Positions 5,641 to 18,624 of a stretch of DNA of 64,000 bases are shown piece after piece; within the stretch, counting starts at the first letter, position 1; the number at the start of each line of letters is the position of its first letter. This stretch comes from Promethearchaeia archaeon (GTDB lineage: Archaea > Asgardarchaeota > Lokiarchaeia > Sigyniarchaeales > SOKP01). The DNA is taken from contig JAHQWJ010000148.1 of the NCBI GenBank assembly GCA_029856125.1, positions 1 through 64,000 on the forward strand. The letters are read 5' to 3'. The notes beneath the pieces were generated by a model, which searched no databases, had not been told where the DNA came from, and saw nothing but the letters and a program-made list of their open reading frames with translations. Made by a program: the position numbers and the translations under genes.

Positions 5641-7896
5641 TTATCCGCCGATTGTCTTATCATCGAAATTTACTTCGCACTTATCACTGTCACAGAATTT
5701 TTCTCCGATTGCTCTATCTTTTGTATCATCTAAGAATACAGGTTTGAGGTTTGCGCTCATTTCTTCATATTTTTCTTTGGTTATTTCTTCGTAAGGTGCT
5801 TGCTTGTAACCATGTTCTTTAATTGGCAAAAATGAAACGCTTTTTAATTTGTCTTCAAAACATTCAAGGACGTGTTTGATCTGACTTGCTTCGTGTGGTT
5901 GAAAAGTTATTGTTATTGACACTTGATTGTCAGACCAATATTTCTGATAATCTGCAGCATTTTCTGCTTGTTCCCATATAGAAACATCGTTTTTTGAGCG
6001 TTCAAAATATTGTTCGTGCACAGGAAATTCAACTACAACGGTATTGGGAGAATATGAATCGTCTTCAACGAAGTATCCTGCATTGTTTATGGGTTCTATC
6101 AAGTCTGAATTCTTAGAAATGCGTATCCGTCTAATATAATACTCAGAATGAGGGTAATGGATTCCAGGAGGAACGCCTGGAAGGAGGCTTACTGTTCCAC
6201 TCGGCTTAACAGTTGTTATCTTAATACTTCTTGGAATGCATAACCATCCAGAATATTGTTCGTCTAAATCTTGTAAATATTTATATCCTTTCTCACACCA
6301 TTCGAGCATAGTTCTCCTGCCGTTTTTAACAAATGCTTCAATTATTCCTGTTTGTGAAACTCCCATCCGTCTGTTTTTAAGCATTACTGCGTTAGTTTCT
6401 TGCCAATGCGTGTTTACAAGCGTTACAGATTTAGAATACAAATAGGCATACTTCAAAGTCTCTTTAAATTCCTCGTAAGAGTCGTGGCGCGATGGAAAGG
6501 TTTCTACTAGGCAGCAAAGTTCAAAGGATTCTAAAGTTTGTTCTCCGCACGGATTTACGCCAGCAGCTTTCTTATCTTTATAATCTGGTTTATCTCCCAT
6601 TCGAGAATATGCTTTTGCGTTATCCAGCCAAAAGATTCCAGGCTCTCCATTTACTGCAACCTGATCGGCAATAAATGAATAATCTAATCCTTTAACAGCA
6701 AAAACGCTATTATTACTTGCCCACCTATGAGAATATAGTTTTTCTTCGTCTTGTTTAGATGTAATAAAATCTAAATCGGTAGCGTCTCCAAGAGCGATCT
6801 CAGCGGATCTCCTGACATTTCCCGACACAACACATTTTCCTATTAGATTCATAATGTCGAGTATGTCAAGTGAACTTATTGGTTGACCAATTCGAGCTTT
6901 TAAAATTTCTTCAATATTCATCAACATACCCTTTAAGGGTGCTGGACCGCTGGCAATTCCTCCAAAACCTCTAATTGGCTGACCTGCGGACCTGATTAAG
7001 GTATAATCAAACTCTGGGATTTGCTTACCCAACAAATACGCATCTATAATAAGTTTAAGCGATTCTACCCAACCTTCTCTACTATCAGGAATCTCAAAAG
7101 CAATATCACCTTCTTGGGGCTTCTTAATTGTTATTTTTCCAGCACCTTTAGTATCGAATCCAACACCCACACCAAGCATTAGAGCGTCCATTACGAACTC
7201 GAATGCTTTTGAGTATTTTAAATCAATGTCTTCAGTGGAGGCAAAGCCGCAATTGTTTAACGACATTGACCCATGTCGAGCAATAAATTCCGTGCCCATC
7301 ATCCAAAGTCCTCTTCCAGGAGGTAAGAACTTAAAATTCCAGATTTTCTGGTACATTGTCTGAGCCGATCTTTGAGCCTTTGAATCGCTCCAAGGCAAGC
7401 TTAATTTCATACAATGTTCTTTTTGTATCGAATAACAACCTTCGACGACTCTCCTAATAGTTTCCCAAAAATCTTCTTTCCTTCCTTCTTTTTCAATAAA
7501 TCTGGCATAGGTTCTTTTATACGTAATCTGTCCTAATGGCCCCCAATCTGGTTGCTTCCCTTTGAATTCTTTAATGAAAACTTCGTCTAAAGTAAACGAA
7601 ATGCTTTCTAAATTAATAGCACGAGCAAATAAATTTCGGTATTTATTCAATCCTCTTTGAGTGAGTTCTACGCACACTAATTCTCTTATGTAATTAGTAG
7701 ATATTTCATCAATGCCAAGCCCAATTATTTTACGCACGACTTCCTCTGTAACTTTCTCGGCAATGTTTATGTCAAGCCCGGTTTCCTTATTTAAAACCTT
7801 AGCTATGCTAGAAACTTCAAACTCTTTTTTTTCACCCTTAGAGTTAATTACATACTTAGGATATAAATCTCCTAACGAAAACGAATTATCGGTCAT
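5641..7896 (-). CDS. nrdJ: Adenosylcobalamin-dependent ribonucleotide reductase (class II, monomeric RTPR type) with N-terminal ATP-cone
   Basis: YKRTYAR, FLPPGRGLW, LNNC, GNVRRSAEIALG, NPCGEQ (radical Cys), TTVKPSGTVS, C-terminal CDSDKC. Confidence 0.93.
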   Translation of the reverse strand: MTDNSFSLGDLYPKYVINSKGEKKEFEVSSIAKVLNKETGLDINIAEKVTEEVVRKIIGLGIDEISTNYIRELVCVELTQRGLNKYRNLFARAINLESISFTLDEVFIKEFKGKQPDWGPLGQITYKRTYARFIEKEGRKEDFWETIRRVVEGCYSIQKEHCMKLSLPWSDSKAQRSAQTMYQKIWNFKFLPPGRGLWMMGTEFIARHGSMSLNNCGFASTEDIDLKYSKAFEFVMDALMLGVGVGFDTKGAGKITIKKPQEGDIAFEIPDSREGWVESLKLIIDAYLLGKQIPEFDYTLIRSAGQPIRGFGGIASGPAPLKGMLMNIEEILKARIGQPISSLDILDIMNLIGKCVVSGNVRRSAEIALGDATDLDFITSKQDEEKLYSHRWASNNSVFAVKGLDYSFIADQVAVNGEPGIFWLDNAKAYSRMGDKPDYKDKKAAGVNPCGEQTLESFELCCLVETFPSRHDSYEEFKETLKYAYLYSKSVTLVNTHWQETNAVMLKNRRMGVSQTGIIEAFVKNGRRTMLEWCEKGYKYLQDLDEQYSGWLCIPRSIKITTVKPSGTVSLLPGVPPGIHYPHSEYYIRRIRISKNSDLIEPINNAGYFVEDDSYSPNTVVVEFPVHEQYFERSKNDVSIWEQAENAADYQKYWSDNQVSITITFQPHEASQIKHVLECFEDKLKSVSFLPIKEHGYKQAPYEEITKEKYEEMSANLKPVFLDDTKDRAIGEKFCDSDKCEVNFDDKTIGG

Positions 7897-8373: not shown

Positions 8374-9291
8374 GTGCTAGATGAAATTGAAGTGAATGAT
8401 GAAGACGATACGGAAGTTCCAAGAGAAAAAATTAAACTCCAGTTTCATTGGTACTTAAGTATTTTCTTTGTAATTTATTATTTATCTTATGTTGTTGCTG
8501 GAATCATTTTTATGTCTTATGTAATTGTTATATTTGTTCCAAATGTCTTGTTAGTAGATAACCTCATTACGATATTTACTAATCTTGATTCGTTATTGGC
8601 GTTTTTAGCTTTACCTTTAGTTATTATTGTCAGTTATTTATATCGCTTACTTACCGTAGGTTTAATAACTCGATTTTTCTGGAAATTTACTGAATATAGA
8701 AGTCCAACGAAGGATGGCGTAATTCCACGAAATATCGGTTCCAAGACCGCTAATTATTACCATATTAGATCTTTTATGCTAAAATACGGAAAAAACGCAT
8801 TTATGAAAGGAGTCTTCCCATGGTTAGCTAATTTTTACTTTAATTTTGTGGGTTCTGGTATCATTAAGAAAGGCTCCACATTAGAAGAATCAGTTGTTAC
8901 AGATAAAAATATAAATGTTGGAAGGAATTGCTACATCGGTGTTAATTCTGCATTATCATCTCACTTTGTAGAAGGAATATTTGGCAATATCGTCTTTTTC
9001 GAAATCAAATTGGGAGAAAACACCACATTAGGAGGATTTAACAATATTGCTCCTGGATGTGAACTAAGTGATAATTCATATCTTTTACCAATAGCGGCCG
9101 CGACAAAACATAATAAAACTAAAGGGAATAATTATTACTTCGGGATGCCATTCCGACGCATATTTAAGAAGAAAATTATGGATTACTTAAAAGTGAGCGA
9201 AGGGGATTTAGATCGAGCTGAGGAATTAAGAGCTAAACAAGAGAATGAAAAATTAAAAAGACAGTTAAAAGCTACAAATACTGAGAACTAA
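8374..9291 (+). CDS. Membrane-anchored left-handed beta-helix (hexapeptide) acyltransferase-like protein, paralog A1
   Basis: Two N-terminal TM segments; VGRNCYIGVNSALSSHFVEG, LGENTTLGG, YYFGMP. Confidence 0.75.
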   Translation: MLDEIEVNDEDDTEVPREKIKLQFHWYLSIFFVIYYLSYVVAGIIFMSYVIVIFVPNVLLVDNLITIFTNLDSLLAFLALPLVIIVSYLYRLLTVGLITRFFWKFTEYRSPTKDGVIPRNIGSKTANYYHIRSFMLKYGKNAFMKGVFPWLANFYFNFVGSGIIKKGSTLEESVVTDKNINVGRNCYIGVNSALSSHFVEGIFGNIVFFEIKLGENTTLGGFNNIAPGCELSDNSYLLPIAAATKHNKTKGNNYYFGMPFRRIFKKKIMDYLKVSEGDLDRAEELRAKQENEKLKRQLKATNTEN

Positions 9292-9308
9292 AAATTAAAT
9301 AAAGAGGA

Positions 9309-10217
9309 ATGTATAAGATTTTGATTGAAGATATAAGTGATTCTGGATCGGATATTCCACGGGAATTAGTTCACTTCCAGTATCATAAATACATGGCATT
9401 TTTCTTTGCTATCTATGTTGGTTCTTATTTAGTGCCAGTCATAGTTCTAATGTTTTACCTCTTCCTAATCTTAAAACCCTTGTTCTTTGCAGTAGAAAGT
9501 TTTATTATTATCCTTACGAGTTTTGATTCTTTAATAGTTTTTTTAACCATTCCACTTGTGGTTATTATATTCTATTTATCTCACCTATTTTTCTTAGGAG
9601 TGTTTACCCGAATCTTATGGAGGTACACTGAAAAGAAGAGTCCTACGAAGGACGGTATAATTCCTCGCGATATACAGTCAAAAACGGCAGATTTTTACCA
9701 CTACAGAAGTTTCATGATTAAATACGGAAAGAACGCTTTCATGAAAGGATTTTTCCCTTGGTTGGTTAATTGGTTTCTTAATTTTGTGGGTGCTGGTGTT
9801 GTAGATAAAGGCACAACATTTGAAGAATCGGTACTTAACGATAGAAATATAATCGTAGGGAAAAATTGCTATATAGGTGTAAACTCCACGCTATGTACTC
9901 ACGTAGTAGAGGGGATCTTCGGAAATATTATTTACTTTAAAATTGTATTAGGGGAAAATGTCACCCTTGGCGGATTCAATCAAATTGGACCCGGGGGCGA
10001 TTTAAAAGAAAATTCTTTCTTATTACCAATGGCCGCCGCAACAAAATTTAATACAACGAAGGGAGATAATTACTACTTCGGGATGCCATTACGTCGCATA
10101 TTTAAGAAGAAAATTATGAATTATTTAAAATTAAGCGAAGATGATTTATCTCGATCTGAAGAATTAAGAGTTAGACGAGAAGAAGAAAAATTAGGAAAAC
10201 ACAATAAAGTGAACTAA
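9309..10217 (+). CDS. Membrane-anchored LbetaH acyltransferase-like protein, paralog A2 (true start possibly TTG 9321)
   Basis: Same architecture as A1 and A3; VGKNCYIGVNSTLCTHVVEG. Confidence 0.75.
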   Translation: MYKILIEDISDSGSDIPRELVHFQYHKYMAFFFAIYVGSYLVPVIVLMFYLFLILKPLFFAVESFIIILTSFDSLIVFLTIPLVVIIFYLSHLFFLGVFTRILWRYTEKKSPTKDGIIPRDIQSKTADFYHYRSFMIKYGKNAFMKGFFPWLVNWFLNFVGAGVVDKGTTFEESVLNDRNIIVGKNCYIGVNSTLCTHVVEGIFGNIIYFKIVLGENVTLGGFNQIGPGGDLKENSFLLPMAAATKFNTTKGDNYYFGMPLRRIFKKKIMNYLKLSEDDLSRSEELRVRREEEKLGKHNKVN

Positions 10218-10255
10218 GAAAAATTTAGATAAAATAAAGAGGAATGTAGTAGATT

Positions 10256-11176
10256 TTGATTGAAGACACAAGTGATTCTGGACCTGAACTTCGAAAGGAA
10301 ATTGTTCAATTCCAATATCAGAAATATATAGCTTTCTTCTTTTTTATTTATGTAGGGTCTTATTTAGCGCCAGTCATAGCTCTAATGTTCTACCTTTTCT
10401 TAGTATTAAAACCCTTATTTTTAGAAGTAGATAACTTTATTGTTATCCTTACGAGTCTTGATTCATTAATAATTTTTTTAACAATTCCACTTGTGGTCGT
10501 TGGCTTCTATTTAACACACCTATTTTTCTTAGGAGTTTTTACAAGAATTTCATGGAAATTTACAGAGAAAAGAAGCCCATCAAAAGATGGAATAATTCCT
10601 CGCAATATCGCTTCTAAAACCGCAGATTATTACCACTATAGAAGTTTTATGATTAAATACGGAAAGAATACTTTCATGAAAGGAATTTTTCCTTGGCTGG
10701 CAAACTGGTTTTTTAATTTTGTAGGTGCTTGTGTTATTGATAAAGGCACAACATTTGAAGAATCTGTAAGTAATGATCGAAATATTGAAGTCGGAAGAAA
10801 TTGTTATATTGGAGTGAATTCGGCATTAGCATCTCATGTTGTTGAAGGTGTTTTTGGTAACATCGTCTATTTTAAAGTAAAAGCAAGAGATAATGTTACG
10901 TTTAGTGGTTTTAACGTTGTAGCTCCAGGGTGCGAGTTAAAAGATGATACTTACTTATTGCCAATGGCTGCAGCAACAAAATTTAACACAACTAAGGGGA
11001 ATAATTTCTATTATGGTATGCCTTTTAGACGGATCTTCAAGAAGAAACTAATAGATTACCTAAAAGTAAGTGAAGATGATTTGAACAGAGCAGAAGAACT
11101 AAGAATTAAGCAAGTAAACAAGAAACTGAACAGTTCGAATAAAGAAGAAATAAAAAGTAGAGAAAAATTAAATTAA
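10256..11176 (+). CDS. Membrane-anchored LbetaH acyltransferase-like protein, paralog A3
   Basis: VGRNCYIGVNSALASHVVEG, FYYGMP; TTG start. Confidence 0.75.
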   Translation: MIEDTSDSGPELRKEIVQFQYQKYIAFFFFIYVGSYLAPVIALMFYLFLVLKPLFLEVDNFIVILTSLDSLIIFLTIPLVVVGFYLTHLFFLGVFTRISWKFTEKRSPSKDGIIPRNIASKTADYYHYRSFMIKYGKNTFMKGIFPWLANWFFNFVGACVIDKGTTFEESVSNDRNIEVGRNCYIGVNSALASHVVEGVFGNIVYFKVKARDNVTFSGFNVVAPGCELKDDTYLLPMAAATKFNTTKGNNFYYGMPFRRIFKKKLIDYLKVSEDDLNRAEELRIKQVNKKLNSSNKEEIKSREKLN

Positions 11177-11194
11177 AATCATATGTGAAATAAA

Positions 11195-12109
11195 ATGACA
11201 GAAGAAGAAAAAGACAAGCAAGATATTGTTAAGGAAAATGATGAGACAGATGATGATTCAGATTTCGTTATAGACTTTACAACAAGTTCAGCAATAAATA
11301 AAGTAACTTTGAAATTTTTAGTTGTGTATATCCCAATATTTTGGTTTAGTGGTTTAGTAGTAGCAACTCTATGGTATGGATACACAGTAAGTCTAGTTCC
11401 TTGGATCATCAAATTATTATTTTTACCGTTATTATTGTTATTCTTTTCGTTTCTTTTCATATTTAGTTGCTTGTTCTTCAGTAAATTATTCCTTATATTT
11501 ATTAATCTTATTCACCTCCCTAAAGAAGGGATTTTCCGCACTGATTCGGGTAACCCTGACTTTGAGTTTTGGCGATTTAGAACTGAGATAAAGAAGATTA
11601 CTTTGTGGCTGATAAGAAATTGGCCTCTACCGTGGATTGATGTAATAGCTTTCCGCTGGTTTGGAATAAGGATGGATTTTTCAAGCCATTTAAACGACGC
11701 ATGGTGCGACGCAGAATTCATTTCTTTTGGAAAAAACGTGACTATCGGCCAAGGCGCGGCTATTATGAGCTCAATGGTTGTAGGTAATTACCTTATCATT
11801 AAAACGATCAGATTTGATGATTATTCGCTCATAGGAGGTCAGAGCACTATCGCCCCAGGAACGCATTTTGGAGAAGATACAGTGCTCGGTGCTGTTTCTG
11901 TAACAACCCTTAATCAAGAATTAGAATCTGGATGGATCTATTCTGGAATCCCCGCAAGAAAATTAAAACCTAACAAATACGCTGAAATGCGGAGGGATAT
12001 TATTCATAAAGTAGATGTTGACGAAGAAGAAGCAGTCGAAACCGAGCACGAAGTTAATATTGACGAAGATAAAAAGCACCTAATTAAAAAAAAGAGCGAG
12101 GATGATTGA
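11195..12109 (+). CDS. Membrane-anchored LbetaH acyltransferase-like protein, paralog B1 (His-less)
   Basis: 2 TM; PKEGIF..FEFW, FGKNVTIGQGAAIMSS, IGGQSTIAPG, WIYSGIPARK. Confidence 0.75.
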   Translation: MTEEEKDKQDIVKENDETDDDSDFVIDFTTSSAINKVTLKFLVVYIPIFWFSGLVVATLWYGYTVSLVPWIIKLLFLPLLLLFFSFLFIFSCLFFSKLFLIFINLIHLPKEGIFRTDSGNPDFEFWRFRTEIKKITLWLIRNWPLPWIDVIAFRWFGIRMDFSSHLNDAWCDAEFISFGKNVTIGQGAAIMSSMVVGNYLIIKTIRFDDYSLIGGQSTIAPGTHFGEDTVLGAVSVTTLNQELESGWIYSGIPARKLKPNKYAEMRRDIIHKVDVDEEEAVETEHEVNIDEDKKHLIKKKSEDD

Positions 12110-13007
12110 GATGAGCGTTCCTAATTCTATGCGTATTGGTCCTTTCTGTGCCTCGGTCTTAGTTAAGAAAAAATACTTGATAGCCTACATTTTTTTGATT
12201 TGGATAAGCATCCTTCCCGCTATTTTAGAAATTTGGTGGTACTGGCAGATGTTATGGTACGACCCTCGGCCACTCCATTTCTACGTGTTCCTGCCCCTTT
12301 ATTTGATAGTAATTTATGTTACAACTGTCTTTGCAGCCATCTTTTCCGCAAAAGTTATGTTAATGATCGCGAGTATTTTCCATAAGCCTAAAGAAGGAGT
12401 ATTTCTTCGAGATCCTTCTGATAGGGATTATCGTTATTGGAGCCTTAGAAACACGATAAAGAAATGGCCTACTTGGCTCGCACATAAGTTTCCATTTCCC
12501 TTCTTAGATAATATTTGCTTTAAAGTGTTTGGCGTAAAAACTAAATTTTCTAATTCCCTTTTTGAAGGCTGGGTAGATACAGAATTTATAGAGTTCGGTA
12601 AAAATGTAGTTATTGGACAAGGTGCTATAGTTCAGTCTTCGGTTATTATAGGGAATTTTTTAATTATTAGAAAAACAGTTATCGAAGAAAATGTCAGAGT
12701 TGGAGCACACGTGATTATTATGCCAGGAACTCACATAGGAAAAAACTGTATTTTAAATACGTGGTCTTCTACGATGGTAGGACAGGAATTAGAAGAAGGT
12801 TGGATATACAATGGAGGTCCGGCAAAAAAATTTAAGAGAAATAGGTTTTTTGAAGATATCCCAATTGAAAAACTTACTAAATCTATTGGAGACATGGGCG
12901 AATTATTAAAGAAATACGATGACCAAAGAGTCGCTAGAGTAATGAAGAAGCGGAGATCGATTAAGAGAAAAGATAAAGAAGAAAAAGACGCGGAAGAAAA
13001 AGAATAA
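12102..13007 (+). CDS. Membrane-anchored LbetaH acyltransferase-like protein, paralog B2 (His-less)
   Basis: 2 TM; PKEGVF..YRYW, FGKNVVIGQGAIVQSS, VGAHVIIMPG, WIYNGGPAKK; overlaps B1 stop. Confidence 0.75.
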   Translation: MIEMSVPNSMRIGPFCASVLVKKKYLIAYIFLIWISILPAILEIWWYWQMLWYDPRPLHFYVFLPLYLIVIYVTTVFAAIFSAKVMLMIASIFHKPKEGVFLRDPSDRDYRYWSLRNTIKKWPTWLAHKFPFPFLDNICFKVFGVKTKFSNSLFEGWVDTEFIEFGKNVVIGQGAIVQSSVIIGNFLIIRKTVIEENVRVGAHVIIMPGTHIGKNCILNTWSSTMVGQELEEGWIYNGGPAKKFKRNRFFEDIPIEKLTKSIGDMGELLKKYDDQRVARVMKKRRSIKRKDKEEKDAEEKE

Positions 13008-13009
13008 AC

Positions 13010-13798
13010 ATGAAGATCGGTTACGTACAAACTTCTCCAATTTTTGGTGAAATAACTCAAAACTTTAAACAAGTTGAAGATTTACTAGGAAATGCTAAAG
13101 GAGATTTGCTTGTTTTACCCGAACTATTCGCAATAGGATACACATTTATATCTAAAGAAGAAGCAGAATCTATGGCTGAAACTACTGAAGGAAAAACTGC
13201 CAATTTTTTAATAGGGTTAGCTAAAAAAACGGGTGCTGTGGTTGTAGGCGGATTCATAGAAAAAGATGGTAAACAAATTTATAATTCGTCTATGATAGTA
13301 TCTGGTAGCGAAGTTCTTGGGACTTATCGGAAACTCCACCTTTATTACAAAGAAAAACTGTGGTTTTCTCCGGGGAACAAACCTTTAGAAATATTTGAAG
13401 TAAAAAAAACAAAGGTAGGAATCATGATTTGTTTCGATTGGTTCTTTCCTGAGACTCTCCGAAGTCTTGCTCTTCTTGGAGCAGACATTATAGCTCACCC
13501 CGCTAACTTAGTGCTTCCGTATTGCCAAAGGGCGATGACAACTCGTTGTTTGGTAAATCGAGTTTTCGCTGTAACATGTAATAGGATTGGAAACGAAGCA
13601 AGGGGAGAAGATAATTTTGTATTTACGGGGGGTAGTCAAATTACTTCTTATAAAGGCGAAGTTCTCTCATCCGCCCCAAAAGATAAACCACATATTGACT
13701 TTGTTGAAATAGATGTTAAACAAGCGAGAGATAAAAACCTTAACAAATATAATAATGTATTTAGTGATAGAAGAACCGAGTTTTATTCTCTTGAATAA
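13010..13798 (+). CDS. Carbon-nitrogen hydrolase (nitrilase superfamily amidase/acyltransferase)
   Basis: Glu-Lys-Cys triad: LPELF, YRKLHL, ICFDWFFPE; starts 2 bp after B2. Confidence 0.9.
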   Translation: MKIGYVQTSPIFGEITQNFKQVEDLLGNAKGDLLVLPELFAIGYTFISKEEAESMAETTEGKTANFLIGLAKKTGAVVVGGFIEKDGKQIYNSSMIVSGSEVLGTYRKLHLYYKEKLWFSPGNKPLEIFEVKKTKVGIMICFDWFFPETLRSLALLGADIIAHPANLVLPYCQRAMTTRCLVNRVFAVTCNRIGNEARGEDNFVFTGGSQITSYKGEVLSSAPKDKPHIDFVEIDVKQARDKNLNKYNNVFSDRRTEFYSLE

Positions 13799-13814: not shown

Positions 13815-14822
13815 ATGAAAGCGGCTGTATTCGACGGGCAAGATATCTCCATTAAGGAAGTACCGATACCAAGACTTGAAGATTCTCAAGTTTTAATTCA
13901 AATAAAAGCGTCAGGAATATGTGGGACCGATATAGCTATAGCAAAAGGGGATTTACCAACGCCAACGCCGATCATTTTAGGTCACGAGTTTGCAGGTGAA
14001 GTTATAGAAGTCGGTAAGAAAATTAACTCAAACTGGGAAGGAAAACATGTCACATCCGAAATTAATAGCAACATCGATTTCAGCTGTTATTACTGTCAAC
14101 GAAATATTTTCTCTCAATGCCTATCGCGCAAAGCCTTAGGTATAGATATTAATGGCTCCTTTGCTGAATACATAGTTGTTGAGCCATATATGCTTCACGA
14201 AATACCGAGAAAGATTTCTTACAAGGAAGCAACATTTATAGAACCTTTAGCAGCAGCGTATCAAACATTTGAAATGATGCCATTAGCAGATGAAGACAAA
14301 ATTATCGCAATCTATGGGCTTGGAAAATTAGGTTTATTACTAGCCCAAGTGGCCTTAGTTAAAGGATTGGATGTAATAGCAGTTGATGGTTCAGATAAAA
14401 AGCTTTCTATGGCTGAAAAGTATGGTGCAAAGCAACTAATTAACCGTTTTGAGGTAGAAAATATAAGTGATGAAATCAAAGGTTCAACTGATAATCTTGG
14501 AGCAGATATTGTCGTAGATACTACAGGCAATCCAGAAGCTCTTATAGATATCGTTGCTTCGTGTAAAACGCGAGGTAAAATCCACATTAAAAGTACTCAT
14601 GGATTAAGAACTCCAATCAATCTTACTGATATAGTAGTTCGAGAAATCACCGTTTACAGTAGTAGATGTGGTCCATTTGATAAAGCAATTGAGGGACTAA
14701 GCTCTGGAGATATTAAAGTTAAAAGTTTAGTCTCCAAAATGTATGACTTAGAAAAAATTAGAGAAGCATTTGCTGCTTACGATGAAGATCCAGATTTTAT
14801 AAAAGCAGTTATCATAATTTAG
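13815..14822 (+). CDS. Zinc-dependent medium-chain alcohol dehydrogenase
   Basis: GICGTD, GHEFAG, C-x2-C..C structural Zn site, EPLAAA, GLGKLG. Confidence 0.9.
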   Translation: MKAAVFDGQDISIKEVPIPRLEDSQVLIQIKASGICGTDIAIAKGDLPTPTPIILGHEFAGEVIEVGKKINSNWEGKHVTSEINSNIDFSCYYCQRNIFSQCLSRKALGIDINGSFAEYIVVEPYMLHEIPRKISYKEATFIEPLAAAYQTFEMMPLADEDKIIAIYGLGKLGLLLAQVALVKGLDVIAVDGSDKKLSMAEKYGAKQLINRFEVENISDEIKGSTDNLGADIVVDTTGNPEALIDIVASCKTRGKIHIKSTHGLRTPINLTDIVVREITVYSSRCGPFDKAIEGLSSGDIKVKSLVSKMYDLEKIREAFAAYDEDPDFIKAVIII

Positions 14823-15207
14823 TAAATAATACCTGATTTTCCAAGAATCTAACAATTTTTTTACATGTTTGCATCTGGTAGTTTTTATTAGGATAAAATA
14901 CTTCTGGTCTCGGGCAGTCTTGGTCTAAAGTACAGTGTCCTTTATCAGGATCATAAATCAATGGGTAAAAACGGCACCCTTGTGGCCTCACATCATATAT
15001 TGTACACAATTTAGCAGCACTATCAAAGAACACACAATATCCTTTAACATTTATTAATTGATTAAATCCTTCTTCGGTTCTTCGAATAAAACTGGTTATT
15101 TTTAAATGTTTAGGGTTATTTTTTTTAATACGAGCAATATCCTTACTAGATAAGAGCATCTCCGTTTCAATACAGCATTTTCCACAATCCTTACATATAT
15201 TTTTCAT
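14812..15207 (-). CDS. YkgJ-family (CxxCxxCC) cysteine-cluster protein
   Basis: CKDCGKCC, CVFFD..CTIYDVRPQGCRFYP. Confidence 0.88.
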   Translation of the reverse strand: MKNICKDCGKCCIETEMLLSSKDIARIKKNNPKHLKITSFIRRTEEGFNQLINVKGYCVFFDSAAKLCTIYDVRPQGCRFYPLIYDPDKGHCTLDQDCPRPEVFYPNKNYQMQTCKKIVRFLENQVLFTKL

Positions 15208-15388: not shown

Positions 15389-16510
15389 ATGTCTATTTTA
15401 AAACAACTTATGGAGGCAACTCGACTTACCAATCCTTGGATTACTAGCTGGAAAAATGAAGGAAAAAAAGTATTAGGATATTTTTGTTCGTATATTCCTG
15501 AAGAGATTATCTACGCTGCAAATATTTTGCCGATTAGGGTAAGAGCAAGAAAGTGTACTGATACACCAATGGCGGATGCCTATTTAAGTTCTACCATGTG
15601 TAGTTATACGAGATGTTGTCTTGAGCAAGCCAATAGAAAAGAATTTGGATATCTTGATGGAATTGTTTCGTGTAATTGCTGCGACCAAGTTAGGAGACTT
15701 TACGATAATATAAGATATAAGGCCCCGTTTCCTTATCATTACATCATGGGAGTTCCCGGTAATATCAGTGAAACTACATTAGATTGGTTTAAACATGAAC
15801 TCTCTAAATTTAAAGTAAGTATTGAGAAAAATTTCAATACTAGAATTACTGATGAAAAGTTAGGTGATACGATTAGATTATATAATAATTCTCGTAAATT
15901 GCTTAAAGAGATATATGAGCTCAGAAAACATGATTCCCCTCCTATTACAGGTAGTGATGTACTAAATATCATTTCAGCAGGAATCTCTATTCCAAGAAAC
16001 GAGTTCAATGCTTTATTAACACAGCAACTTGAGGAGCTTAAAAGTAAAGAGGGTATTTCCGATCATAAATCGAGAATAATGGTAATCGGTAGTATGCTTG
16101 ATGAGCCGGAATATATACAAATTATTGAACATCTCGGCGGATTAGTAGTTACTGATTCTACATGTATAGGAACTCGATATTTTTGGGATATGGTTGATGA
16201 AACTTCAAGTCCTCTTGATGCACTTGGAGAACGTTATCTATCGAAAATCTCATGTCCTCGTATGACTGGTGAACATTTGAAAAGAGCGCAATTTATGATG
16301 GATATGATTAAAGATTTTAATGTAGATGGAGTAATTTTTCAAAGAATGAAGTTTTGTGCGATATGGTGGGCTGAAATTTTCATGTTAAGGGACAAATTAA
16401 AAGAAGAAGGTATTCCATTTCTTGATTTAGAAAGAGAATATGTGTTAAGCGGTGCTGGAGCTATGAAAACTCGTGTCCAAACCTTTATAGAAATTTTAGA
16501 AGCGAGGTGA
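15389..16510 (+). CDS. 2-hydroxyacyl-CoA dehydratase / benzoyl-CoA reductase family subunit (HgdB/BcrC-like)
   Basis: GYFCSYIPEEII, CD..RR, CPRM, VDGVIF..KFC, TRVQTFIE. Confidence 0.85.
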   Translation: MSILKQLMEATRLTNPWITSWKNEGKKVLGYFCSYIPEEIIYAANILPIRVRARKCTDTPMADAYLSSTMCSYTRCCLEQANRKEFGYLDGIVSCNCCDQVRRLYDNIRYKAPFPYHYIMGVPGNISETTLDWFKHELSKFKVSIEKNFNTRITDEKLGDTIRLYNNSRKLLKEIYELRKHDSPPITGSDVLNIISAGISIPRNEFNALLTQQLEELKSKEGISDHKSRIMVIGSMLDEPEYIQIIEHLGGLVVTDSTCIGTRYFWDMVDETSSPLDALGERYLSKISCPRMTGEHLKRAQFMMDMIKDFNVDGVIFQRMKFCAIWWAEIFMLRDKLKEEGIPFLDLEREYVLSGAGAMKTRVQTFIEILEAR

Positions 16511-17835
16511 AAAATATGGATATAGAAGTGTATAATAAATATAAAAAACTTGGAAGAGGAAATTGGGGAAAAGATCTTACTATGTGGAAAATGATGTATT
16601 TGGGATTGTTAAATCAAAATAAAGATGAAGAATTTACACCAGTTTTCGAATTATTATTTAATATCTTCCTTGACCTCCCTAAGGCAAGGAAAGAAGGAAA
16701 ACTTGTTATAATGCATTCATTTAATTATGGTCCTGAATTATTTCACGCAATGAACTTAGCACCTCTCATGCAGGAATTATTTAGTGTTGGATTAGCCCCG
16801 TTACATCTAAATGAACCTTATATAGATTTTAGCAATCAAATTGGATATGGAGACAATCCAACAATCTGTAACGCTCAAAGGCCATTGATTGGTTCATTTC
16901 TGCAAGGTGCCTCGCCAATTCCTGATTTATTATTCTTTCTTTCAACGCCTTGTAATTCTCTTGCTATGACTTATCAAGTTTTTGAACACATAGCAAAAAT
17001 TCCTGCACATAGTATAGATGTTCCTTATTGGGCTTATGAACACAAAGATAACGAATTTTATGATGAGAATACTATTTCATATATGGTAAAGCAAGTAAAA
17101 GATTTAATACTATGGTTAGAAAAAGAAACAAAGCAGAAGTTAAATCCTGAAAATCTCCAAGAAACAATGAAAAATGTGAATCAATCAAGGGAATATATAT
17201 TAGAGTTTAACGAACTTTTAAAAACTGTTCCTTGCCCAGTGCCGAGCCGAGCAGGTTTTGGAAACTTTCTTTCCATGGTGACTCGTGGCGGCACTGATGA
17301 TGCTGTTAAAGCTACCAAATGGTTACGTGATTCTGCTTTAGAGAATGTTAGGAATGGGATAGGAGGTGTACCTGATGAGAAGATTAGAATTGCTTGGCCT
17401 TATACTCATGTCTTCTTTGATGCTGACCTTCTCATTTGGTTAGAAGAAACATTCAATGCAGTGGTGATTATGGATATACTTGGATACTACCAAGTCCTAC
17501 CTCACGATATATCTACACTCGAAAAATGTTATGAGAATTTAGCTAAGGGAACATTAGATTTCTCAATGGTAGGAACGTGTCGTGGCCCAATTGAGTTTTA
17601 TATCGAATTTTTATTAAATTATGTAAAAGAATATAAAATAGATTGTGTGATTATGCCAATGCAATTTGCGTGTAAACATGCATATGCAATAGCTCGAGTT
17701 GCTTCTGAAGCTGTGCGAGAACAAACAGGAATTCCGACTTTAATTTTTGGTTGTGATCCGTACGATTCACGAGAAGTAACTTCAGATGCTATAAGAGAAA
17801 GGATTTCAGAATTTCTGACTCAAGTAGTTTTATAA
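16507..17835 (+). CDS. 2-hydroxyacyl-CoA dehydratase / benzoyl-CoA reductase family subunit (HgdA/BcrB-like)
   Basis: PELFHAM, IC..Q, PCNS, IDCVI..ACKH, GIPTL..D..D; GTGA overlap with the upstream gene. Confidence 0.85.
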   Translation: MKNMDIEVYNKYKKLGRGNWGKDLTMWKMMYLGLLNQNKDEEFTPVFELLFNIFLDLPKARKEGKLVIMHSFNYGPELFHAMNLAPLMQELFSVGLAPLHLNEPYIDFSNQIGYGDNPTICNAQRPLIGSFLQGASPIPDLLFFLSTPCNSLAMTYQVFEHIAKIPAHSIDVPYWAYEHKDNEFYDENTISYMVKQVKDLILWLEKETKQKLNPENLQETMKNVNQSREYILEFNELLKTVPCPVPSRAGFGNFLSMVTRGGTDDAVKATKWLRDSALENVRNGIGGVPDEKIRIAWPYTHVFFDADLLIWLEETFNAVVIMDILGYYQVLPHDISTLEKCYENLAKGTLDFSMVGTCRGPIEFYIEFLLNYVKEYKIDCVIMPMQFACKHAYAIARVASEAVREQTGIPTLIFGCDPYDSREVTSDAIRERISEFLTQVVL

Positions 17836-17853
17836 AAGAGGTTTATTATAGAA

Positions 17854-18624
17854 TTGTTAGTAGCTGGATGTGATGTTGGTTCATTAACAGGAAAAGCAGT
17901 AATATTACAGGATGGTGAAATTTTATGTTATAGTATTGTTCCTACAACACCCAAACCTGAGAAGACTGCTCAAAATGCAATGGATGCGGCACTTCAAAAA
18001 AAAAACTTATCTCTGAATGATATTGAATTCATTGTAGGGACGGGATATGGTAGAATAAAAATTCCTTTTGCCACGTCTCAAATATCAGAATTGACATGTC
18101 ATGGTAAAGGCGCTCACTCTTTAATCCCATCAATTAGAACAATAATTGATGTGGGCGGTCAGGATTGTAAGGTAATTAAAGTGGATAAGAACGGAAAGAT
18201 TCTGGATTTTGCCATGAATGATAAGTGTGCCGCAGGAACGGGACGATTTTTGGAAGTGATGGCTAGAACTCTGGAACTCAAGCTTGAAGAGCTCGGCCCT
18301 ATATCTTTAGAGTCAAAGAATCAGGCTAAAATAACTGCTCAATGTAGCGTTTTTGCTGAAACAGAGGTAGTTAGTCTTATGGCTGATGGTATAGAAGTAT
18401 CAGACATAGTTGCGGGGATTCATGACGCTGTAGCCTCTAGAATTATGTCTCTTGTGTATAGAGTTGGCCTTGAAGAAGATTTGACAATAACTGGAGGAGT
18501 AGCAAAGAATATAGGAGTTGTAACCTATTTAGAGAAAAGGCTGGAGGTCACATCTAAAAAATTACCGGTTGATCCTCAAATAATAGGAGCGTTAGGAGCT
18601 GCATTAACAGCAAAAGAACAATAA
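17854..18624 (+). CDS. ATP-dependent activator of 2-hydroxyacyl-CoA dehydratase (HgdC/BadF-BcrA/D ASKHA family)
   Basis: GCDVGS, GTGYGR, ELTCH, DVGGQD, MNDKCAAGTGRFLE, CSVFAE, GGVAKN. Confidence 0.93.
   Translation: MLVAGCDVGSLTGKAVILQDGEILCYSIVPTTPKPEKTAQNAMDAALQKKNLSLNDIEFIVGTGYGRIKIPFATSQISELTCHGKGAHSLIPSIRTIIDVGGQDCKVIKVDKNGKILDFAMNDKCAAGTGRFLEVMARTLELKLEELGPISLESKNQAKITAQCSVFAETEVVSLMADGIEVSDIVAGIHDAVASRIMSLVYRVGLEEDLTITGGVAKNIGVVTYLEKRLEVTSKKLPVDPQIIGALGAALTAKEQ

What the first reader, a model, noticed from the sequence alone, without database searches (positions are those of the whole stretch)
8374..13007. Five-gene array of stand-alone membrane LbetaH acyltransferases: a split Pls-like (poly-amino-acid synthetase terminal domain) system
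Seen: five tightly packed ~300-aa genes, each with 2 TM helices, a P-x-(D/E)-G-(I/V) loop, a hexapeptide beta-helix and a terminal (Y/W)xxGxP. Known: this TM+LbetaH unit is what is repeated three times (C1-C3) in the terminal domain of epsilon-poly-L-lysine synthetase Pls/PosA-type NRPSs, and LbetaH enzymes act as trimers. Inference: here the units are encoded as separate polypeptides with no adenylation/thiolation gene in the window. That suggests a membrane acyl-transfer or polymerisation machine using a different donor (e.g. acyl-CoA or aminoacyl-tRNA) to decorate lipids, glycans or surface proteins in an Asgard archaeon.
Basis: partly seen in the sequence, partly recalled or inferred. Interest (0 to 1): 0.85.

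Follow-up and report, generated by a model that had tools for sequence, protein, structure and literature searches.

The report
Split Pls-like membrane acyltransferase, Asgard
Five adjacent genes of a Lokiarchaeia-type Asgard archaeon encode the separate subunits (three alternative catalytic ones and two scaffold ones) of a membrane-anchored beta-helix enzyme built like the polymer-making end of bacterial polylysine synthetase but lacking its amino-acid-activating part; its substrate is unknown and nobody has tested it.

Summary
Five co-directional ~300-aa genes (8374-13007) each encode a two-helix membrane hairpin plus a left-handed beta-helix (LbH).

They are not five equal copies. There are three types: A (g1-g3, ~60% identical), B1 (g4) and B2 (g5).

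- **Fusions:** Elsewhere these types are fused as A-B1, B2-A or B2-A-B1. In 77 of 79 species-level genomes they lie in the order A, B1, B2 (38 split, 39 fused).
- **Link to Pls:** A profile of the B types hits all three repeats of a genuine Pls/PosA synthetase (E 9e-18, membrane hairpin included). The g5 model's nearest named fold cluster is Pls/PosA (TM 0.64).
- **Catalytic His:** Only type A keeps the His that aligns with catalytic His115 of LacA. In 119 of 119 Pls/PosA proteins that His sits in exactly one repeat, the third.
- **Complex model:** An A+B1+B2 model scores 0.84 against a best control of 0.41.
- **No carrier:** The genome (99% complete) has no carrier domain.

My reading is a heterotrimeric, single-active-site membrane acyltransferase that probably uses acyl-CoA, with three interchangeable catalytic subunits. 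The acceptor is unknown.

It is a new variant of a known kind. The scan has noted the same system on other Asgard genomes.

The parts
8374..9291 (+). g1, type A subunit (305 aa): 2-TM hairpin plus LbH; carries the S-H-x-V-E-G His
   Evidence: ORF and alignment. About 50-55% identical to the N-terminal halves of A-B1 fusions. The His is invariant in the A alignment and aligns with LacA His115.
9309..10217 (+). g2, type A subunit (302 aa), paralog of g1 and g3
   Evidence: Its 5' two-thirds are closer to g3 (74-86% nt identity) and its 3' end is closer to g1 (86-87%).
10256..11176 (+). g3, type A subunit (306 aa from TTG 10256); the ATG that corresponds to the g2 start is followed by TAG TAG
   Evidence: Used as chain 1 of the complex model. 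Ends with TAA, and a second in-frame stop lies before g4.
11195..12109 (+). g4, type B1 subunit (304 aa): 2-TM hairpin plus LbH without the His (Ser-Ser at that position)
   Evidence: 56-59% identical to the C-terminal halves of A-B1 fusions. Best NCBIfam hit is TIGR02353, E 2.7e-9. Matches my Pls repeat-1 HMM over positions 12-227 of 231.
12102..13007 (+). g5, type B2 subunit (301 aa): the stand-alone, most conserved subunit
   Evidence: 716 homologs, with the 120 best at 61% identity or more. Best NCBIfam hit is TIGR02353, E 4.2e-11. AF2 model has pLDDT 78.5, and Pls/PosA is its nearest named fold cluster.
13010..13798 (+). Nitrilase-superfamily C-N hydrolase, 2 nt after g5; linked in the window's closer relatives only
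   Evidence: PF00795, E 8e-38. NF040852 scores 286 bits, below its cut-off of 500. Present in 17 of 79 loci.
13815..14822 (+). Zn-dependent medium-chain alcohol dehydrogenase, a frequent neighbour of the LbH genes
   Evidence: Similar to threonine and scyllo-inosose dehydrogenases, below their cut-offs. Present in 38 of 79 loci and in L009, L010, L025 and L026.
14812..15207 (-). CxxCxxCC (PF03692, YkgJ-like) metal-binding protein, convergent; the most constant neighbour
   Evidence: Pfam family assigned in orthologous loci. Lies within 6 kb in 57 of 79 loci. Also sits next to a paralogous triad in another genus.

Best explanation
The five genes encode subunits of a heterotrimeric, membrane-embedded LbH acyltransferase. 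It is homologous, unit by unit, to the C1-C2-C3 terminal domain of Pls/PosA poly-amino-acid synthetases.

One A, one B1 and one B2 subunit would assemble into a pseudo-threefold complex: a bundle of six TM helices with three cytoplasmic beta-helices on top. Only A contributes the general-base His, so the complex would have a single active site, and B1 and B2 would be non-catalytic scaffold or substrate-binding subunits. The three A paralogs (g1-g3) would be interchangeable catalytic subunits that share the single B1 and B2, giving up to three enzymes with different specificity.

The genome has no carrier (T) domain, so the donor is most likely a free CoA thioester rather than an enzyme-tethered aminoacyl thioester. 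The acceptor would be a membrane-associated or exported molecule, such as a lipid head group, an amine/polyamine or a glycan.

What is shown: the three types, their fusions and gene order, homology to the Pls unit, the His pattern, and the absence of a carrier domain.

What is inferred: the assembly (a model plus fusions), the single active site, the CoA donor, and the nature of the acceptor.
For: - **Three types:** The five proteins fall into types A, B1 and B2.
- **Fusions:** A-B1 proteins of 585-625 aa, B2-A proteins of 519-671 aa, and a B2-A-B1 protein of 797 aa (P0121) exist.
- **Gene order:** Of 79 species-level genomes, 38 have a split A>B1>B2 run and 39 have a fused A-B1 followed by B2. 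Median gaps are 6, -1 and -4 nt.
- **Paralogous loci:** In another genus these loci also hold exactly three units: 2+1, 1+1+1 and 1+1+1.
- **Complex model:** A+B1+B2 scores ipSAE 0.84, against a best control of 0.41. That mark was reached by 58 of 80 solved complexes and 2 of 110 mismatched pairs. The three runs share at least 73% of contacts, the partner's pLDDT is at least 80, and contacts include both the TM helices and the beta-helix faces.
- **Homology to Pls:** The B profile hits P0268 at E 9e-18 in three stretches, the first covering profile positions 24-260. P0268 is a true Pls/PosA protein: TIGR02353 scores 471 bits against a cut-off of 423, and it has A and PP-binding domains.
- **Shared motifs:** The post-TM P-x-G loop and the closing W/Y-x-G-x-P-A motif are shared with Pls repeats.
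- **Fold:** The g5 model has the hairpin, strand, two helices and LbH that were described for the PosA model (PMC10522769). Its Atlas match to the Pls/PosA cluster has TM 0.64.
- **Catalytic His:** The His is invariant in A and aligns with LacA His115. B1 and B2 have invariant Ser there. In 119 of 119 Pls/PosA proteins this column is His in repeat 3, in 5 of 119 in repeat 1, and never in repeat 2. Three bacterial triples without A/T domains have it only in repeat 2.
- **No carrier:** No PP-binding domain was found, while 22 AMP-binding genes are present.
- **Topology:** The charge distribution places the LbH domain in the cytoplasm.
Against: - No biochemical data exist for any stand-alone member.
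- LbH trimers are abundant among solved structures, so the complex score may partly reflect likeness to them.
- Replacing A with an unrelated protein still gave 0.41, which means B1-B2 contacts carry part of the score.
- Gene counts are not 1:1:1. They are 3:1:1 here and 135:128:90 over the 79 loci, and a common layout has two A-B1 genes with one B2. Sharing of subunits therefore has to be assumed.
- g1-g3 match Pls profiles only over the LbH part, and the alignment of A to LacA is weak (E 0.0045).
- The catalytic residues of Pls itself are not established in the papers I could read.
- Neighbouring genes point to no pathway.
Confidence: 0.6

Rival explanations
1. A true carrier-independent polymerase. 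Like Pls, the triad would iteratively condense an activated monomer (an aminoacyl-CoA, acyl-adenylate or similar) onto a free growing chain and pass the polymer through its six-helix bundle, making an unknown Asgard polyamide or similar polymer.
For: - The only characterised relatives, Pls and PosA, are iterative polymerases that act on a freely diffusing acceptor (PMC9205021; PMC10522769).
- They share the same unit architecture and the one-His-per-three pattern.
- The genome has 22 AMP-forming ligase genes that could activate monomers.
- A C-N hydrolase lies 2 nt downstream of g5. In principle it could trim or recycle an amide product.
Against: - The genome has no T domain, and no ligase gene is linked to the cluster in the 79 loci surveyed.
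- Bacterial relatives without A/T domains sit in sugar-nucleotide and glycosyltransferase clusters, or are fused to an SDR. That fits simple acyl transfer better.
- The C-N hydrolase is present in only 17 of 79 loci.
Confidence: 0.13
2. Five independent enzymes. Each paralog would form its own homotrimeric membrane acetyltransferase with its own substrate, and the array would be an ordinary tandem paralog family.
For: - Classical LbH acyltransferases are homotrimers (established knowledge).
- Single-unit relatives of 236-274 aa that keep the His exist, for example P0233 and the copy on contig C126 of this genome.
Against: - B1 and B2 lack the His yet are the most conserved types, with 68-72% mean column identity.
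- The fixed order A, B1, B2, the translational coupling, and the A-B1, B2-A and B2-A-B1 fusions all argue for co-assembly.
- The heterotrimer model passes its controls.
Confidence: 0.1
3. A non-enzymatic or non-acyltransferase LbH assembly. An example would be a gamma-carbonic-anhydrase-like membrane module, like the CA/CAL heterotrimer on plant complex I.
For: - g5's PDB sequence hits include gamma-CA-like complex I subunits (E 2e-5 to 1e-4) and gamma carbonic anhydrases.
- Those assemblies are also heterotrimers that mix active-type and inactive-type subunits (established knowledge).
Against: - The gamma-CA NCBIfam hit (E 4.6e-4) is far weaker than the Pls hit (4e-11).
- The matches cover only the generic beta-helix, with TM-score by query at most 0.31.
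- The A His aligns with an acyltransferase catalytic His.
- No respiratory-complex genes are linked to the cluster.
Confidence: 0.04

Closest known systems
C-terminal polymerisation domain (C1-C2-C3; TIGR02353) of Pls/PosA-family single-module NRPSs (epsilon-poly-L-lysine synthetase, delta-poly-L-ornithine synthetase)
   Same: - The repeated unit is the same: a TM hairpin, a short strand carrying a P-x-G loop, two helices, an LbH of about five turns, and a closing W/Y-x-G-x-P motif.
- Three different units make up one assembly.
- Exactly one of the three units carries the His.
- Evidence: profile, fold and motif matches.
   Different: - There are no A or T domains, and no carrier domain anywhere in the genome.
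- The units are separate polypeptides, or two-unit fusions in relatives.
- TIGR02353 scores are 36-42 bits against a cut-off of 423.
- All Asgard types resemble Pls repeat 1 most, so there is no one-to-one orthology with C1/C2/C3.
- The His unit is the middle one in the fused order B2-A-B1, whereas it is the last one in Pls.
- Three alternative catalytic subunits are encoded.
Bacterial three-unit membrane LbH proteins without A/T domains (P0188 683 aa, P0206 680 aa, P0212 960 aa with an N-terminal SDR); uncharacterised
   Same: - Three 2TM+LbH units, with no NRPS front end.
- The His is in one unit only.
- TIGR02353 gives sub-threshold hits in three stretches, at 168-184 bits.
   Different: - All three units lie in one polypeptide.
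- They share only 20-28% identity with the Asgard units.
- The gene context differs: P0206 sits among dTDP-sugar, glycosyltransferase and oxidoreductase genes.
Soluble homotrimeric LbH acyltransferases of the LacA/Maa/NodL type (galactoside and maltose O-acetyltransferases) and LpxD
   Same: - The LbH fold.
- The A-type His aligns with LacA His115.
- They are the best solved-structure matches.
   Different: - They are soluble, homotrimeric and have three active sites.
- They have no TM hairpin and no pre-LbH helical module.
- The Foldseek TM-score by query is at most 0.31.

Membership tests
Pls/PosA family NRPS (TIGR02353 terminal domain) | Score above the curated cut-off of TIGR02353 (423.1 bits) | tested here: not met
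   g4 scores 36.0 bits and g5 41.9 bits. g1-g3 give no hit at E <= 1. The control protein P0268 scores 471 bits.
Pls/PosA family NRPS (TIGR02353 terminal domain) | N-terminal adenylation and thiolation (PP-binding) domains on the same protein | tested here: not met
   The five proteins hit only Hexapep-type families in Pfam. The window has no AMP-binding gene and the whole genome has no PP-binding match at E <= 0.01, at 99% completeness.
Pls/PosA family NRPS (TIGR02353 terminal domain) | Three tandem 2TM+LbH repeats in one polypeptide | tested here: not met
   Here each unit is a separate gene. The three-unit state exists only as a gene set, and as the fused relatives P0121 and P0124.
Pls/PosA family NRPS (TIGR02353 terminal domain) | Unit architecture: TM hairpin, strand, two helices, five-turn LbH (as modelled for PosA) | tested here: met
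   The AF2 model of g5 has helices 23-51 and 57-93, a strand at 99-102, helices 108-129 and 134-142, then the LbH. Its Atlas match to the Pls/PosA cluster has TM 0.64 over residues 1-244. The PosA description is in PMC10522769.
Pls/PosA family NRPS (TIGR02353 terminal domain) | One His-bearing repeat per three (my own observation on 119 family members, not a published criterion) | tested here: met
   In Pls/PosA proteins the His is in repeat 3 in 119 of 119, in repeat 1 in 5 of 119, and in repeat 2 in 0 of 119. In the Asgard types it is invariant in A, while B1 and B2 have Ser.
Pls/PosA family NRPS (TIGR02353 terminal domain) | Iterative amide-bond polymerisation of a diamino acid | not testable with these tools
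   This needs biochemistry.
Hexapeptide-repeat (LbH) acyltransferase superfamily (PF00132) | Hexapeptide repeats that form a left-handed beta-helix | tested here: met
   g5 passes the Pfam gathering score (41.7 bits against 27), and g1-g4 give sub-threshold hits. The model shows an LbH, and 160 PDB matches at E <= 0.001 are LbH proteins.
Hexapeptide-repeat (LbH) acyltransferase superfamily (PF00132) | General-base His in the loop after an LbH coil (LacA His115 type) | tested here: inconclusive
   The His is present and invariant in A and aligns with LacA His115, but that alignment has E 0.0045. It is absent from B1 and B2.
Hexapeptide-repeat (LbH) acyltransferase superfamily (PF00132) | Trimeric assembly with active sites at subunit interfaces | tested here: inconclusive
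   The heterotrimer model scores 0.84 against a best control of 0.41, and gene fusions agree. This supports assembly but does not show it.
Hexapeptide-repeat (LbH) acyltransferase superfamily (PF00132) | Use of an acyl-CoA or acyl-carrier thioester as donor | not testable with these tools
   Only indirect evidence is available: the genome has no carrier domain and the LbH is predicted to be cytoplasmic.
Gamma-class carbonic anhydrase | Three zinc-ligand histidines in the beta-helix | not tested
   I did not make a residue-level comparison. The family hit is weak (E 4.6e-4, 19.9 bits against a cut-off of 250).

The most novel reading that the evidence does not exclude
The triads are carrier-independent relatives of Pls that polymerise or ligate an activated small molecule at the membrane and export the product through their six-helix bundle. 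Swapping the A subunit would choose the monomer or acceptor, and the constant CxxCxxCC partner would have a role in the reaction. That would be an undescribed route to a surface or secreted polymer, or to a modified lipid, in the archaeal lineage closest to eukaryotes.
Probability: 0.13. Interest if true: 0.85.

Novelty: new variant of a known kind. Interest (0 to 1): 0.6.

Why it matters
- **What was known:** The Pls/PosA terminal domain has been described only as the tail of bacterial and fungal single-module NRPSs. Its mechanism is unknown, and I found no solved structure by sequence search.
- **What this adds:** The same module exists on its own, split into subunits, and is strongly conserved. 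It was present in 25 of 25 sampled genomes of the window's family, at 4-12 copies of the B types per genome. The module is therefore an autonomous membrane enzyme that NRPSs later recruited, or the reverse.
- **A testable rule for the whole superfamily:** Exactly one of the three units carries the His. This held in 119 of 119 Pls/PosA proteins, in the Asgard triads and in the bacterial triples. It points to a single active site and gives a clear target for mutagenesis in Pls itself.
- **For Asgard biology:** This is an abundant, uncharacterised membrane enzyme family that may modify lipids or surface molecules.

Tried and rejected
- **Solved structure of a Pls terminal domain:** None turned up. 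Sequence and profile searches returned only soluble LbH proteins, and Foldseek against the PDB did the same.
- **Literature:** Nothing for 'TIGR02353', for a Pls cryo-EM structure, or for Asgard hexapeptide acyltransferases. A search for PosA or stand-alone forms returned only the PosA paper. One search failed on syntax.
- **g3 and g4 as one fusion gene broken by a stop:** Rejected. They share a frame, but two in-frame stops (TAA and TGA) separate them. The split is also kept in relatives, with sizes 317+303+304 and 309+314+308+298 aa and in 38 of 79 loci.
- **One-to-one orthology of A, B1 and B2 with C1, C2 and C3:** Rejected. Every Asgard unit scores best against the Pls repeat-1 HMM.
- **Wide distribution across Asgard classes:** Not confirmed. 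Some NCBI records are named Thor-, Hermod-, Hod- or Odinarchaeota. In the taxonomy-balanced sample, however, strong matches are confined to the window's family (25 of 25) and a sister family of the same order (2 of 2). Only four single weak matches (E ~1e-21) occurred among 124 other genomes.
- **Pathway clues from neighbours of paralogous loci:** The neighbours are heterogeneous. They include ERCC4, an SDR, a hydrogenase-like protein, subtilase, PfkB, HypF, a metallophosphatase, ThiI and an MFS transporter. Only CxxCxxCC and an ADP-forming acyl-CoA-synthetase-like protein recur.
- **hmmalign reading of the His column:** For P0121 repeat 2 it is off by one, giving D where the MAFFT alignment shows D-H. 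The 'N' and 'D' calls for some fused A units are therefore unreliable.

Full report
**Observation.** The five ORFs are real: 8374-9291 (g1), 9309-10217 (g2), 10256-11176 (g3), 11195-12109 (g4) and 12102-13007 (g5). All lie on the + strand and are separated by 17, 38 and 18 nt and then an 8-nt overlap. They continue, 2 nt and 16 nt on, into a C-N hydrolase gene and a Zn-alcohol-dehydrogenase gene, and a CxxCxxCC gene converges on them.

Each protein has two strongly hydrophobic segments near its N-terminus. The loop between them has no K/R, and the segment after the second helix is basic. This predicts a hairpin with both ends, and the beta-helix, in the cytoplasm. Pfam sees only Hexapep, above threshold for g5 alone.

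The five are not equal copies. g1-g3 are 59-60% identical to one another (type A). g4 and g5 are about 20% identical to g1.

**Three subunit types that belong together.** Orthologs of g5 number in the hundreds, and the 120 best are at least 61% identical.

In related contigs the neighbours of the g5 ortholog are proteins of about 600 aa. Their N-terminal half is 46-55% identical to g1-g3 and their C-terminal half is 56-59% identical to g4. So there are three types: A, B1 (g4) and B2 (g5).

An exhaustive profile search also found B2-A fusions and a 797-aa B2-A-B1 protein, P0121, from a Promethearchaeota MAG.

I then surveyed 79 species-level genomes:
- 38 carry a split A>B1>B2 run and 39 carry a fused A-B1 followed by B2. 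Median intergenic gaps are 6, -1 and -4 nt.
- A CxxCxxCC gene lies within 6 kb in 57 loci, the ADH in 38 and the C-N hydrolase in 17. Many loci are cut by contig ends, so these are lower bounds.
- Arrays with two or three stand-alone A genes, like the window's, occur only in the closest relatives (L034-L039, L042, L046).

Paralogous loci in another genus also hold exactly three units each.

The split between g3 and g4 is genuine. Two in-frame stops lie between them, and relatives keep the split.

**Relation to Pls/PosA.** TIGR02353 is the best NCBIfam hit for g4 and g5 (E 2.7e-9 and 4.2e-11). It covers only the first beta-helix of the model and is far below the cut-off. For g1-g3 the best hits are ordinary acetyltransferases.

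Stronger evidence came from three further tests:
- **Profile search.** A profile of the B types, run against 1.8 billion representatives, hit P0268 at E 9e-18 in three stretches. P0268 is a bona fide Pls/PosA protein: TIGR02353 scores 471 bits against a cut-off of 423, and it has adenylation and PP-binding domains. The first stretch covers profile positions 24-260, which includes the TM hairpin, and the second covers 41-242.
- **Unit alignment.** A unit-level alignment shows a shared P-x-G loop after TM2, a W..R helix, and the closing W/Y-x-G-x-P-A motif.
- **Fold.** The AF2 model of g5 (pLDDT 78.5) has the hairpin, a strand, two helices and the LbH. This is the arrangement described for the PosA model in PMC10522769. 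In the ESM Atlas, after two Asgard clusters, the nearest cluster is 'Pls/PosA family NRPS', with TM 0.64 over 224 residues covering residues 1-244. PDB matches cover only the beta-helix, with TM at most 0.31.

Orthology with C1/C2/C3 is not one-to-one. All Asgard units score best against my Pls repeat-1 HMM. g4 and g5 match it over nearly its full length, while g1-g3 match only the LbH part.

Three-unit proteins without A/T domains also exist in bacteria: P0188, P0206, and P0212, which is fused to an SDR. P0206 lies in a dTDP-sugar/glycosyltransferase cluster.

**One active site per three units.** Type A has an invariant His in the motif S-H-x-V-E-G. In the HMMER alignment to E. coli LacA (1kqa), this His falls on His115. 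I know that residue from the literature as the catalytic base. The alignment is weak, at E 0.0045. B1 and B2 have invariant Ser at this position.

I fetched 120 Pls/PosA-type proteins, cut them into their three repeats and read the same column. It is His in repeat 3 in 119 of 119, in repeat 1 in 5 of 119, and in repeat 2 in none. The three bacterial triples have the His only in repeat 2.

So 'one His unit plus two His-less units' is a rule across the superfamily, and type A is the Asgard catalytic unit. An earlier first-reader note on this stretch made the same His observation. I tested it independently.

**Assembly.** A three-chain prediction used g3, g4 and g5, each supplied with its own alignment:
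- The score is ipSAE 0.84, against a best control of 0.41. That mark was reached by 58 of 80 solved complexes and 2 of 110 mismatched pairs.
- The three runs share at least 73% of their contacts, and the partner's pLDDT is at least 80.
- B2 touches both A and B1, through the TM helices as well as the beta-helix faces.

The model supports binding but does not show it. Because LbH trimers are common among solved structures, part of the score may be likeness. The gene fusions are independent evidence for assembly.

**Donor and acceptor.** The genome is 99% complete. It has 22 AMP-binding genes but no PP-binding domain, and none of the AMP-binding genes lies in the window. A thiotemplated Pls-type mechanism is therefore unlikely.

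A cytoplasmic LbH with a LacA-type His fits a CoA-thioester donor best. The acceptor is open. Neighbours give no pathway: the ADH is a generic MDR enzyme, the CxxCxxCC protein is of unknown function, and other paralogous loci have unrelated neighbours.

I commit to a heterotrimeric acyl-CoA-dependent membrane acyltransferase with interchangeable A subunits (confidence 0.6). The main alternative is a true carrier-independent polymerase (0.13).

**Distribution.** In a taxonomy-balanced sample of 151 genomes of the phylum, strong matches occur in all 25 genomes of the window's family and in both genomes of a sister family. Each carries 2-12 B-type matches (4-12 in all but one of the window's family). 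Only four single weak matches occur among 124 other genomes.

Some NCBI records are named Thor-, Hermod-, Hod- or Odinarchaeota. They carry orthologs at the same 62-68% identity as the Promethearchaeota records. I treat those names with caution.

This genome also carries a second pair on contig C28 (286 aa with the His, 246 aa without) and a single His-bearing unit on C126.

**Novelty and verdict.** I found no paper describing stand-alone or split forms of the Pls terminal module. This is a new variant of a known kind. The scan has noted the same system on other Asgard genomes, and two follow-ups reached similar conclusions. The scores here rest on my own tests.

Noticed in passing
window 10236-10258: The g3 start region keeps the ribosome-binding-like AAAGAGGA and the ATG that corresponds to the g2 start. 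That ATG is followed at once by TAG TAG. The long ORF can begin only at TTG 10256 (or a nearby non-standard codon), yet g3 keeps every residue that is invariant in type A.
   Followed up: partly
window 9309-10217: g2 looks mosaic. Its first ~500 nt are 73-86% identical to g3 against 54-78% to g1. Its last ~200 nt are 86-87% identical to g1 against 71-77% to g3. This suggests gene conversion or unequal crossing-over among the A paralogs.
   Followed up: partly
window 15389-18624: A complete set of the 2-hydroxyacyl-CoA dehydratase / benzoyl-CoA-reductase type lies directly beyond the CxxCxxCC gene: two subunits plus the ATP-dependent activase. The best hit of the first subunit is 'double-cubane-cluster reductase'. 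It is not linked to the LbH genes in other genomes.
   Followed up: no
window 5641-7896 (-): An adenosylcobalamin-dependent ribonucleoside-triphosphate reductase lies divergent from g1 across a 477-nt spacer. The same neighbour is kept in 18 of 79 related loci.
   Followed up: no
L032 (own genome, contig C28) 1192-2805; L033 (contig C126) 6306-7109: This genome holds further members of the family. One is a His-bearing 286-aa unit followed by a His-less 246-aa unit, with no third unit detected. The other is a lone His-bearing 267-aa unit, flanked by an ADP-forming acyl-CoA-synthetase-like gene and an MFS transporter.
   Followed up: partly
L027 8001-10043 (bacterial contig of 1.34 Mb): P0206 is a 680-aa three-unit membrane LbH protein without A/T domains. 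It sits directly upstream of a GT1 glycosyltransferase, a GMC oxidoreductase, an SDR and dTDP-sugar genes (RmlA/RmlD-like). This may be a glycolipid or glycan acylation cluster.
   Followed up: no
P0294, P0268 and Atlas row 5: Pls/PosA-type proteins occur in eukaryotes. One is a Bodo saltans protein 64% identical to the terminal domain of P0268. An Atlas cluster of PP-binding plus Hexapep fragments is 52% eukaryotic, with Rotifera the commonest taxon.
   Followed up: no
Their B2 orthologs and synteny cannot be told apart from those of Promethearchaeota records, and the GTDB-based sample confines the family to one order. The submitted names may be wrong.
   Followed up: partly
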